From positions 416,001-480,000 of the forward strand of contig CBDDFZ010000001.1 in NCBI GenBank assembly GCA_965227515.1: a DNA stretch of 64,000 nucleotides, given 5' to 3'. The translations under genes and the position numbers were made by a program. Positions within the stretch are counted from its first letter, which is position 1. Every line of letters begins with the position of its first letter. The notes beneath the pieces were generated by a model. That model was given only the letters and a program-made list of their open reading frames with translations. It was not told the origin of the DNA and made no database searches. The DNA comes from Alphaproteobacteria bacterium (lineage in GTDB: Bacteria > Pseudomonadota > Alphaproteobacteria > CALKHQ01). Positions 41,412 to 43,938 of the stretch are shown here, in pieces.

Positions 41412-41927
41412 TCAGGAGGCGCCGGCCACGGCGTCGACCGCGTCATCCAGCTTGCGCTCCAGATTGCGGAACCGTTCCATCAGCGCGTTCAACCGTTCGC
41501 GCGACGATCCCTGGTCGTCGTCACGGCGCGCCTGGCGCGGGCAACGGAAGCGGCGTCCGCCGGACCGGGTGCCATGCTCTGCCCGGCGCGGCATCAGCCA
41601 TGCCAGCAGGCCATAGCCGACCACGACGCCCATGGGGAAGAACACCAGGGCCACGATGGCGGCGATGCGCACGACCTTGACGCTGGCGCCGAAGCGCGAC
41701 GCCAAACCCGCGCACACGCCGAACAGGATCGCCCTGTCGCTGGCGAGACGGTGCTTGACCCGGCCGCTGAGATTCCTGCCCCCATGATGCCGGCCGCCAT
41801 GACGATGCCGCCCGTGACAGCGATGATGCCGGCGCCGGCGCATGCGGTCGGCCTGGCGGACCTCGTCATAGCCCTCGCCGTCGCGGCCATCCGGGCCCAG
41901 ATAATCGTCGGAATAGGTGTGGGTCAC
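41412..41927 (-). CDS. pspC: PspC domain protein with a His/Arg-rich N-terminus
   Basis: ILFGVCAGLASRFG...VVRI...YGLLAWLMP, C-terminal coiled coil. GTG start after GGAG. Confidence 0.85.
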   Translation of the reverse strand: MTHTYSDDYLGPDGRDGEGYDEVRQADRMRRRRHHRCHGRHRHGGRHHGGRNLSGRVKHRLASDRAILFGVCAGLASRFGASVKVVRIAAIVALVFFPMGVVVGYGLLAWLMPRRAEHGTRSGGRRFRCPRQARRDDDQGSSRERLNALMERFRNLERKLDDAVDAVAGAS

Positions 41928-42000
41928 CTCGGTTCTCCCTGTCCTCGTCAATCTCGGCCAGCAATATCGCGGCCACCCTCTCGGTTCGATCCGCCAGCCT

Positions 42001-42711
42001 TCAGGCCTTCTTCTCGCCCTGATCTATTTGGTTGTCGGTGCCCGCCTGCGCCAGCTTTTCGCGCAGCGCGGCAAGCTCACGCTCGACCGTGTCCTCCGCC
42101 GCCAGCTCGGCGAACTCCTGCTCCAGGCTCTTCTTGCGGCCAATTTCCCGCGCTTCCGCCGCACCTTCCAGCGTGTCGAGCCCGTTCTCGATGTCCTCGA
42201 ACCGCTGGAACGCCGCCCTGATGCGGTCGTCGTCATGGCCGTGCCGGCGATGCCGCTGGCCGTGATGGCCGTGACCGCCGTGGCGGCGCGAGGCGAGCGC
42301 GCGCTCACGCTTCTTGGCGTCGGCCAGCTTGGATTCGAGCTGCGAGATATCGGCGCTGGTCTGGTTCAAGGTCTCTTCCAGCTCAACTAGCTGGTTGCGC
42401 ACGCCCTCGGTCTCGTCCATCAGGCGCGCCCGTGCCGCCAGCGCGCCGCGCGCCAGGTCCTCGCGGTCGCGGCCCAGCGCGAACTCCGCCTTGCGGTGCC
42501 AATCCTCGGCATCGCTGGCCGCGCGGTCGATGCGGCGCTGAAGCTGCTTCTTCTCGGCAATGCCCCGGGCCGCGGTGGCGCGCACCTCCACCAGGGTGTC
42601 TTCCATTTCCTGGACGATCATGCGGATCACCTTGTGCGGGTCCTCGGCCCGGTCGAGCAGGGCGGTGACATTCGAATTCACGATGTCGCCGAGCCTGGAA
42701 AAAATGCCCAT
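42001..42711 (-). CDS. pspA: Phage shock protein A with an internal His-rich segment
   Basis: MGIFSRLGDIVNSN, AEDP.KVIRMIVQEMEDTLVEVR, KAEFAL..REDLAR, KSLEQEFAEL. Confidence 0.95.
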   Translation of the reverse strand: MGIFSRLGDIVNSNVTALLDRAEDPHKVIRMIVQEMEDTLVEVRATAARGIAEKKQLQRRIDRAASDAEDWHRKAEFALGRDREDLARGALAARARLMDETEGVRNQLVELEETLNQTSADISQLESKLADAKKRERALASRRHGGHGHHGQRHRRHGHDDDRIRAAFQRFEDIENGLDTLEGAAEAREIGRKKSLEQEFAELAAEDTVERELAALREKLAQAGTDNQIDQGEKKA

Positions 42712-42763
42712 CGTTGTCTCCGTCGGTGTGGGCCGATCCGGCCGGCCCGATGACCGCTACTCC

Positions 42764-42778
42764 GCAAGGGGCGTGCCA
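42764..42778 (-). promoter_or_regulatory. Sigma-54 (-24/-12) promoter of pspA
   Basis: Minus strand TGGCACGCCCCTTGC = TGGCAC-N5-TTGC. Confidence 0.88.
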
Positions 42779-42855
42779 AACCTCGAATTTTCCGATAAGA
42801 CATTGTTCTATAATTATTATTCGGCCGCGCGGTTGACGTGCCATCAAACTGCAGA

Positions 42856-42892
42856 TTGGTGAATAATCCAAAGAATTGGTGTTTTTTCCCAA
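42856..42892. promoter_or_regulatory. Probable PspF upstream activating sequences
   Basis: Two TTGG-(AT-rich)-CCAA dyads (TTGGTGAATAATCCAA; TTGGTGTTTTTTCCCAA) about 80-110 bp upstream of the sigma-54 promoter. Confidence 0.6.
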
Positions 42893-42912
42893 CTACCGAC
42901 TACATTTCCCAT

Positions 42913-43938
42913 ATGGCAATCGACGAGCTGCCCACCCCCATCGGCGAGGCCCCGGCGTTCCACGACATGCTGGACCAGATCTCGCGGCTGGCGCCGCTGG
43001 ACCGGCCGGCGCTGGTCATCGGCGAGCGCGGCACCGGCAAGGAGCTGGTGGCCGCCCGCCTGCACTTCCTCTCCCCGCGCTGGGAGGGGCCGCTGGTCAA
43101 GGTCAACTGCGCCGCCCTCAGCGAATCGTTGCTGGATGCCGAGCTGTTCGGCCACGAGGCGGGCGCCTTCACCGGCGCCACCCGGCGGCGGCCCGGCCGT
43201 TTCGAGCTGGCCGACGACGGCACCCTGTTCCTGGACGAGATCGCCCAGGCCTCCGCCGCGATCCAGGAGAAGCTGTTGCGGGTGATCGAGTATGGCAGCT
43301 TCGAGCGGGTCGGCGGCACCGAGACGCTGCATGTCGACGTGCGCATCGTGGCGGCGACCAATGTCGACCTGCCGGCGGCCGCCACGGCAGGGCGCTTCCG
43401 CGCCGACCTGCTGGACCGGCTGGCGTTCGACGTGGTGAACGTGCCGCCGCTGCGCGCCCGTCCCGGCGACGTCGCGCTGCTGGCGCAGCACTTCGCCGCA
43501 ACGATGGCCGCCGAGCTGGACCGCGACCGGTTCCCCGGCTTTGCACCGGCGGCGCTGAAGGCGCTGGAGGCCCACGTCTGGCCCGGCAATGTGCGCGAGT
43601 TGAAGAATGTGGTCGAGCGCGCGGTCTACCAGTCCGCGGCCGATGCACCGGTCGATGCGATCACCCTCGACCCGTTCGCCTCCCCCTGGCGCAAGGCGCT
43701 GGGGGCCGACGCCCCGGCACCCGCCACCGAAGCGCCGCAAGAGCCATCCACTACAGATGACGTTGCAACAGACCTGGGGACCCGACCGCTCGATCTGGCC
43801 GCCACCGTTGATGCGTTCGAGCGCGGCATCGTCGAGCGCGCGTTGGAGGCTTGCCGCCACAACGGCCGCGCCGCCGCCGAGCACCTGGGGCTCAGCTACG
43901 ACCAGTTGCGCCACCGCCTGCGCAAGCACGGGCTCTAA
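42913..43938 (+). CDS. pspF: Phage shock operon sigma-54 activator PspF
   Basis: [36 protein letters not shown]-terminal HTH, no N-terminal regulatory domain; divergent from pspA. Confidence 0.95.

What the first reader, a model, noticed from the sequence alone, without database searches (positions are those of the whole stretch)
41412..43938. Psp system without PspB in which both PspA and PspC carry matching 7-histidine tracts
Seen in sequence: PspA has HGGHGHHGQRHRRHGH (7 His in 16 aa, nt 42235-42282). By my recalled alignment this sits where E. coli PspA has the helical RHQAANSSRDVRRQLDSG segment. The adjacent PspC has HHRCHGRHRHGGRHH (7 His plus 1 Cys in 15 aa, nt 41784-41828) before its PspC domain. 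Only about 70 bp separate the two genes, so there is no pspB. The sigma-54 promoter and pspF are intact. Established: PspA is an ESCRT-III-superfamily membrane-remodelling protein that inhibits PspF until PspB/C signal membrane stress. Inference: His tracts in both partners could form a metal-bridged (Ni/Zn/Cu) or pH-sensitive PspA-PspC contact, or tune polymerisation at a hinge. That would be a metal- or proton-sensing, PspB-independent Psp variant that I do not know to be described.
Basis: partly seen in the sequence, partly recalled or inferred. Interest (0 to 1): 0.75.

Follow-up and report, generated by a model that had tools for sequence, protein, structure and literature searches.

The report
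Family-wide phage-shock system without PspB
A small family of Alphaproteobacteria keeps its only membrane-stress (phage-shock) operon without the sensor gene pspB and has changed matching parts of PspA and PspC; the histidine runs are real here, but most relatives carry arginine-rich PspA instead, so a conserved metal bridge is unlikely and the changed stretch more likely marks where PspA normally receives the sensor's signal.

Summary
In detail: an intact pspF / sigma-54 / pspA-pspC locus, a 73-bp gap, no pspB in the genome, and both His tracts as described. The layout is family-wide: pspB is found in 0 of 4 family genomes and in 35 of 35 other alphaproteobacterial genomes with pspA.

The matched His pair is not conserved. 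Family PspAs carry 0-4 His in that segment (7 of 13 have none), including a pspB-less genome with none, and His counts in the two proteins do not correlate. Three changes are conserved:
- PspA 143-157 lost its hydrophobic stripe (position 152 hydrophobic in 77 of 77 canonical, 0 of 12 family sequences) and became Arg-rich.
- PspC lost its last ~12-residue helix (22 of 22).
- PspC gained a basic N-tail with a Cys at a near-fixed position (17 of 17).

His-rich PspC tails also occur beside pspB elsewhere.

Best reading: a rewired, PspB-independent Psp in which ancestral signalling surfaces were replaced by basic low-complexity sequence, with His a local elaboration at the rod-tuning hinge. Against pure drift, the three strain changes seen in the PspA tract are all synonymous. 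New variant; metal or pH sensing is unproven.

The parts
42913..43938 (+). pspF, sigma-54 activator; W56-loop Trp and GAFTGA intact
   Evidence: TIGR02974 498 bits, over cut-off; motifs
42856..42892 (-). two TTGG..CCAA inverted repeats, likely PspF upstream activation sites (inferred)
   Evidence: of 26 sigma-54-like sites in the genome only this one has two such repeats; one other site has one
42764..42778 (-). sigma-54 -24/-12 promoter of pspA
   Evidence: TGGCACG core kept in all four family genomes
42001..42711 (-). pspA, 236 aa, the genome's only copy; E37, R44, K55, W71, K74, L91, L125, E126, K128, R142, F171, E182 kept
42235..42282 (-). His/Gly/Arg tract, PspA residues 144-159; replaces the amphipathic end of helix alpha3 next to hinge 2; Arg-rich in most family members
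41928..42000 (-). 73-bp intergenic gap with ribosome-binding-like GGGAGA; no pspB
41412..41927 (-). pspC, 171 aa from GTG; PspC domain and C-terminal zipper, ending just after the V105-equivalent
41760..41927 (-). basic PspC N-terminal tail (56 aa, 8 His, 1 Cys, 13 Arg), containing the His tract at 41784-41828
41415..41501 (-). C-terminal zipper of PspC lacking the canonical terminal helix (T/S-x-x-F-x-L-x-R-x-F-x-x-L)

Best explanation
This is a pspF-pspA-pspC operon that lost pspB in the ancestor of its family, and the His runs are likely a local elaboration of basic low-complexity stretches that replaced the ancestral PspB/PspC/PspA signalling surfaces. Shown: pspB loss, loss of PspC's last helix, loss of PspA's 143-157 hydrophobic stripe, and gain of Arg-rich sequence in both proteins, all in one clade nested among pspB-bearing relatives. 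Inferred: PspA still silences PspF (E37 and the W56 Trp are kept) and still polymerises (rod anchor residues are kept). Inferred: PspA 143-157 is where the PspC terminal helix normally delivers the PspBC switch, so both were freed when PspB went. Inferred: PspC now acts as an ungated membrane anchor through its retained zipper and V105-equivalent, with the basic stretches gripping anionic lipid (or, in relatives, PspC's acidic linker), and induction would rely on PspA's own amphipathic helix sensing membrane stress. His/Gly for Arg in this genus would lengthen hinge 2 and at most add pH or metal tuning.
For: pspB over cut-off in 0 of 4 family genomes and 35 of 35 others. The family PspA clade has 100% SH-aLRT support and sits inside pspB-positive alphaproteobacterial PspAs (quick tree, 85 rows). 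Residues 143-157 are the most divergent of 201 15-aa windows in the clade against the canonical profile; position 152 is hydrophobic in 77 of 77 canonical and 0 of 12 clade sequences; Arg is near-invariant at 143, 148, 149, 153, 154, 156. His count in the segment is 7,2,2,4,0,3,3,0,0,0,0,0,0 in the clade vs 0-3 in 107 of 107 non-clade hits. The terminal helix is missing in 22 of 22 clade PspCs, while the V105 position stays V or M. The same PspA segment is degraded in two other loci without adjacent pspB and with tail-less PspC (L053, L096), and never beside pspB. All 31 tract codons are Arg CGN or one base from it, vs 39% genome-wide (descriptive, it follows from the R/H/G/C/Q alphabet). Literature: E. 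coli PspA(1-144) with PspBC is not stress-inducible, and PspC V105D blocks signalling (PMC6003685, passages); the PspC zipper is needed for PspA contact (PMC3068692, section 16 part 2); heat induction needs only PspA (PMC9239133, passage).
Against: 11 of 13 second-copy pspA loci without adjacent pspB, most with a tail-less PspC, keep a hydrophobic residue 152, so loss of the partner does not force loss of the stripe. L053 and L096 are long-branch, broadly degraded copies. The family is a single evolutionary event. The docking site was not localised by any search. All 3 changes seen in the PspA His tract in two related strain contigs are synonymous (neutral expectation p 0.013-0.025; single contigs at depth 4.5-6.6), so the tract appears constrained in this genus. 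The window's PspC linker is basic (+5) whereas 21 of 22 clade linkers are acidic, so the charge-pair option cannot apply here. In Yersinia and E. coli, PspC without PspB is degraded by FtsH and is toxic (PMC3467454, passage), so an ungated PspC needs a further explanation.
Confidence: 0.5

Rival explanations
1. PspC's N-terminal Cys/His tail would be a metal- or redox-sensitive gate that took over PspB's silencing role, folding back on PspC's own zipper until metal or oxidant releases it; the His in PspA is incidental.
For: 17 of 17 full-length clade tails keep a Cys 27-34 residues before the GVCAG motif and 14 of 17 have two Cys, while the rest of the tail varies freely; 438 of 3899 genome ORFs have >=2 Cys in their first 40 aa. 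19 of 3899 ORFs have >=7 His in the first 56 aa. His/Cys N-tails recur in other PspC lineages.
Against: His ranges from 1 to 9. The window has a single tail Cys. Strains differ by 4 non-synonymous changes and an in-frame 15-nt insertion in the tail. Similar tails occur with pspB or with the canonical C-terminal helix, so they are not tied to pspB loss. Cys and His are transition neighbours of Arg CGC, and the sequences are kin. No shared metal-gene neighbourhood was seen (window Pfam scan; relatives' flanks only read by eye).
Confidence: 0.22
2. One reading: His on PspA's hinge and on PspC's tail would share a metal, or titrate with pH, to control PspA-PspC contact or rod geometry.
For: Two of only 8 such tracts in the genome are adjacent. 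3 of 3 strain changes in the PspA tract are synonymous. G001 has 3 and 8 His. The tract is a predicted loop at hinge 2, and deleting that loop in Synechocystis PspA narrows rod diameters and cuts ATPase by over 90% (PMC11746142, sections 8 and 11).
Against: Not family-wide, and no His-His correlation. Both tracts are net basic (+4 and +5), whereas most other His tracts in the genome are His/Asp/Glu types. No structural or binding result places them together.
Confidence: 0.16
3. The operon would be decaying: PspC is becoming vestigial and the tracts are slippage products without function.
For: PspC scores far below TIGR02978, lost a conserved helix, has a 17-aa insertion and a charge-reversed linker in the window, and shows short codon repeats.
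Against: Open frames, promoter and gene order are kept in four genomes of two genera with 63-68% PspA identity. Among the changes listed for strain contig X3, PspA has 7 synonymous to 2 non-synonymous and PspC 11 to 7 (28 coding positions of the contig's 31 differences). The zipper is conserved across the clade.
Confidence: 0.12

Closest known systems
Proteobacterial pspF||pspABC system (E. coli, Yersinia enterocolitica; TIGR02974, TIGR02977, PF06667, TIGR02978)
   Same: Divergent pspF, sigma-54 promoter, PspA with E37 and rod anchor residues, PspF W56 loop, PspC domain with zipper and V105-equivalent.
   Different: No pspB in the genome; PspC ends about 12 residues early and has a basic Cys/His N-tail; PspA 143-157 is polar and basic instead of amphipathic.
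pspFABC variants catalogued by Ravi et al. 2024 (PMC11237479)
   Same: Alphaproteobacterial rearrangements of the operon; their 'PspC+PspB' architecture treats the PspC C-terminal part as a divergent PspB domain, which is the part truncated here.
   Different: The listed variants (PspB duplicates, PspC replaced by Toastrack proteins, PspD) all keep pspB; the 3 PspF context rows in the supplement all have PspB. Their web-app tables were not seen.
Second-copy pspA-pspC operons without adjacent pspB (family f220 and L049, L052, L053)
   Same: pspA directly followed by pspC; C-terminal helix of PspC lost or altered.
   Different: They are extra copies in genomes that also have pspB; PspC has mostly lost the whole zipper; the PspA stripe is mostly kept. 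Here the operon is the sole, PspF-linked copy.
E. coli YqjI/NfeR His/Cys N-terminal extension (recalled; no paper on it was read)
   Same: Low-complexity His/Cys/Gly/Arg tail in front of a folded domain, recalled as nickel-responsive.
   Different: A PadR regulator, not homologous; resemblance of composition only.

Membership tests
Proteobacterial pspFABC system | Divergent pspF (PspF equivalog) with W56 loop and GAFTGA | tested here: met
Proteobacterial pspFABC system | sigma-54 promoter before pspA | tested here: met
   (consensus match only)
Proteobacterial pspFABC system | PspA equivalog with ESCRT-III-type helical layout | tested here: met
   TIGR02977 over cut-off; AF2 helices 25-80, 84-147, 157-191, 196-229
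Proteobacterial pspFABC system | pspB present | tested here: not met
Proteobacterial pspFABC system | Full PspC with terminal amphipathic helix (TIGR02978) | tested here: not met
   46 vs 104 bits; helix absent in 22 of 22 clade proteins
Proteobacterial pspFABC system | Stress induction through PspC-PspA contact releasing PspF | not testable with these tools
   needs reporter and pull-down experiments
   needs ICP-MS/ITC and polymerisation assays
His/Cys N-tail metal sensor (YqjI-like, recalled) | Positionally conserved Cys/His ligands | tested here: inconclusive
   one Cys near-fixed in 17 of 17, two Cys in 14 of 17, His 1-9 and unaligned

The most novel reading that the evidence does not exclude
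This family runs a two-component Psp in which PspC's Cys/His tail replaced PspB as a metal- or redox-gated switch, this genus added His at PspA's hinge so that metal or protons tune ESCRT-III-like rod assembly directly, and the co-lost segments reveal PspA 143-157 as the long-unmapped PspC docking site.
Probability: 0.2. Interest if true: 0.75.

Novelty: new variant of a known kind. Interest (0 to 1): 0.45.

Why it matters
How the PspBC switch engages PspA and frees PspF is still open; I found no mapped PspC site on PspA in the papers seen, and the key Yersinia papers were not held. A family that lost pspB and changed exactly one 15-residue PspA segment and one PspC helix gives a direct, cheap prediction for E. 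coli (mutate PspA 146/150/152/156). It also provides a natural minimal Psp system. If the His/Cys tails do bind metal, it would be the first metal- or pH-gated bacterial ESCRT-III hinge that I know of, but the comparative data argue against this being general.

Tried and rejected
- pspB elsewhere: none over cut-off in G000-G003; own PspB and PspC-tail profiles gave best E 0.11 and 0.24 in G000.
- Frameshift origin of the tracts: the other frames do not restore the canonical segment (read), and strain changes fall on third positions of the present frame.
- One tract copied from the other: rejected.
- Complex prediction, run on a canonical pair (L010 PspA 1-220 with the PspC C-terminal domain, 48-row alignments) to locate the interface: weak support, 0.36 vs best control 0.00; runs agree in at least 81% of contacts; partner pLDDT at least 64. 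The mark was reached by 116 of 157 solved and 2 of 215 mismatched pairs, but at 0.60 or under by only 18 solved pairs and by both mismatches. No interface was given, so the docking site stays unlocalised. The window's own pair and a metal were not modelled.
- The search for related loci gave little (4 and 2 loci).
- No RNA holder listed.
- The protein atlas could not read PspC.
- The careful tree did not finish; the quick tree was used, with 20 near-redundant rows left out.
- Literature: searches for 'lacks pspB' (0 papers), histidine-rich + PspA + phage shock (5, none relevant by listing), pspFAC/pspAC (3, irrelevant) and PspA/PspC/AlphaFold/interface showed no description of this variant. 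Five Darwin-lab papers were not held.
- Earlier findings: none on this locus or look-alikes; one search listed other Psp variants.

Full report
Observation. The locus is as described. pspF (42913-43938, +) and pspA (42001-42711, -) pass their NCBIfam equivalog cut-offs; pspC (41412-41927, -) has the Pfam PspC domain but scores 46 of 104 bits on TIGR02978. Both tracts are at the stated coordinates. The genes are 73 bp apart. The 5.5-Mb, 99.7% complete genome has one pspA, one pspC and no PspB over cut-off. A sigma-54 site, two inverted repeats and the PspF Trp/GAFTGA motifs are present. Only 8 of 3899 crudely called ORFs carry 7 or more His in 16 residues, so the pair is unusual. The two tracts are not copies of each other.

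pspB loss is family-wide and derived. Of 401 same-class genomes, 39 have a pspA match. PspB is over cut-off in 35 of 35 outside the family and in 0 of 4 inside it (the three relatives are 96-98% complete). The relatives have the same pspF||pspA-pspC order, a 58-64-nt gap, the sigma-54 core and a single pspA and pspC over cut-off. One relative's contig is titled an uncultured Alphaproteobacteria MAG. In a quick tree the family PspAs form a 100%-supported clade inside pspB-positive alphaproteobacterial PspAs.

The PspA His tract is not the conserved feature. Twelve database proteins form a clear clade with the window's PspA (274-286 bits vs 232 or less). His in segment 143-157 is 7,2,2,4,0,3,3,0,0,0,0,0,0 (two of the zero rows differ only at the start residue), against 0-3 in the 107 non-clade hits. 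Only four clade members have genomic context; one of them, G002, has no pspB and no His there. In 8 PspA-PspC pairs (4 from genomes, 4 paired by equal contig length, which is an inference) the His counts do not correlate. What the clade shares is the loss of the amphipathic pattern. The segment ranks worst of 201 windows against a profile of 77 canonical PspAs; position 152 is hydrophobic in 77 of 77 canonical and 0 of 12 clade sequences; Arg is near-invariant at six positions. The window has His and Gly where relatives have Arg, plus 3 extra residues. AF2 ends helix alpha3 at 147 with a low-confidence loop at 148-156, while a canonical control is helical to 155. In Synechocystis PspA this alpha3-alpha4 loop is the main hinge for rod diameter and ATPase (PMC11746142, sections 8 and 11 read). 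The anchor residues named there are kept at the matching positions that I checked.

PspC changed at both ends. All 22 clade PspCs stop just after the position matching E. coli V105, which stays V or M, and lack the terminal helix seen in canonical PspC. All 17 full-length database members (and G001) have a basic N-tail with 10-14 Arg and 1-9 His; 14 of 17 have two Cys, and 17 of 17 have a Cys 27-34 residues before GVCAG. Such tails are not specific to pspB loss. Among 61 canonical loci, 2 have 3 or more His, one with 11 His beside pspB and a normal PspA. Among 149 non-clade PspCs, 47 have an extension of 20 or more residues and 23 of those have 3 or more His (biased, because the query profile contained such tails). 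The linker after the membrane segment is acidic in 21 of 22 clade members and +5 in the window.

Results against my reading. In two related strain contigs (about 97% identical, depth 4.5-6.6) the PspA tract has three changes, all synonymous (p 0.013-0.025 if neutral), so it is probably not drifting freely in this genus. The PspC tail, by contrast, shows 4 non-synonymous changes and an in-frame 15-nt insertion. Of 13 second-copy pspA loci without adjacent pspB, 11 keep a hydrophobic residue 152; only L053 and L096, both long branches, lost it. The complex prediction on a canonical pair gave no interface (see Tried and rejected), so the docking-site idea rests on co-loss in essentially one lineage plus literature.

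Mechanism. Established: PspA inhibits PspF; PspB and PspC form a membrane switch whose PspC C-terminal domain binds PspA when on (PMC5596341, passages). The zipper and V105 are needed (PMC3068692 abstract and one part of Results; PMC6003685 abstract and passages). PspA(1-144) is not inducible through PspBC (PMC6003685), and some stimuli need only PspA (PMC9239133, passage). I infer that after pspB loss the PspC terminal helix and the PspA stripe, as parts of the gated switch, were replaced by basic low-complexity sequence. PspC would remain an ungated anchor via its zipper, basic patches would bind anionic membrane, and PspA would sense stress itself (0.5). Rivals: the PspC Cys/His tail as a new metal or redox gate (0.22), the genus-limited His model (0.16), decay (0.12).

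Prior description. Ravi et al. 2024 (PMC11237479; passages and a term search of its one supplement) list pspFABC variants that all keep pspB. Popp et al. 2022 (PMC9239133; passages only, external data files not seen) note pspA with pspC alone in many phyla, so pspA-pspC without pspB is not new in general. A sole, PspF-linked, pspB-less proteobacterial operon with these paired changes did not appear in my searches. Ravi's web-app tables and five Yersinia papers that were not held may bear on this. Also seen as passages only: bioRxiv 2020.09.23.309765, PMC7619361, PMC3467454. The YqjI comparison is recalled.

Verdict. A real, family-level new variant of the Psp system. The matched His tracts are a lineage-specific extreme rather than a conserved metal bridge. 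The most useful product is a testable pointer to PspA 143-157. Interest 0.45.

Noticed in passing
L099 (G596), L105, L025, L013; proteins P0283, P0350, P0270, P0281, P0147-P0159: His-rich or Cys-His N-terminal tails (up to 10-11 His) recur on PspC proteins that keep the canonical C-terminal helix, some beside pspB; a possible recurrent metal-binding add-on of PspC worth its own survey.
   Followed up: partly
L087-L096 (family f220), L049, L052, L053: Second pspA copies directly followed by a short PspC, mostly without the C-terminal zipper, and no adjacent pspB; L053, L095 and L096 are also strongly changed at PspA 31-45, the PspF-binding region.
   Followed up: partly
window 41500-41590 and clade PspCs: The PspC linker is acidic (-3 to -8) in 21 of 22 clade proteins but +5, with an extra Cys, in the window, in parallel with the window's PspA trading Arg for His/Gly.
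   Followed up: partly
L005:2915-3433, L006:2873 onward; upstream ends of L005 and L006: In two relatives pspC is followed by a gene that looks like a PAS-fold protein and pspF is flanked by a peptide ABC permease end (labels by resemblance, not scanned); the window has a TPP enzyme and LysE instead.
   Followed up: no
window 48949-50181 and 58966-60076: A HupE/UreJ-domain gene, and a cation-efflux gene beside a MerR regulator, lie 5-16 kb from the operon; no link shown.
   Followed up: no
window 48213-48890, 16118-16774, 24099-25007, 31083-31571: Four ORFs of 163-303 aa with no Pfam hit at 1e-6.
   Followed up: no
window 42816-42867: Two overlapping sigma-70-like sites, one per strand, in the pspF-pspA gap (2 found vs 0.2 expected); the plus-strand one could drive pspF.
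   Followed up: no
L028, L045, L047, L032: Some canonical operons have extra PspC-domain or PspB-like genes between or after pspB and pspC.
   Followed up: no
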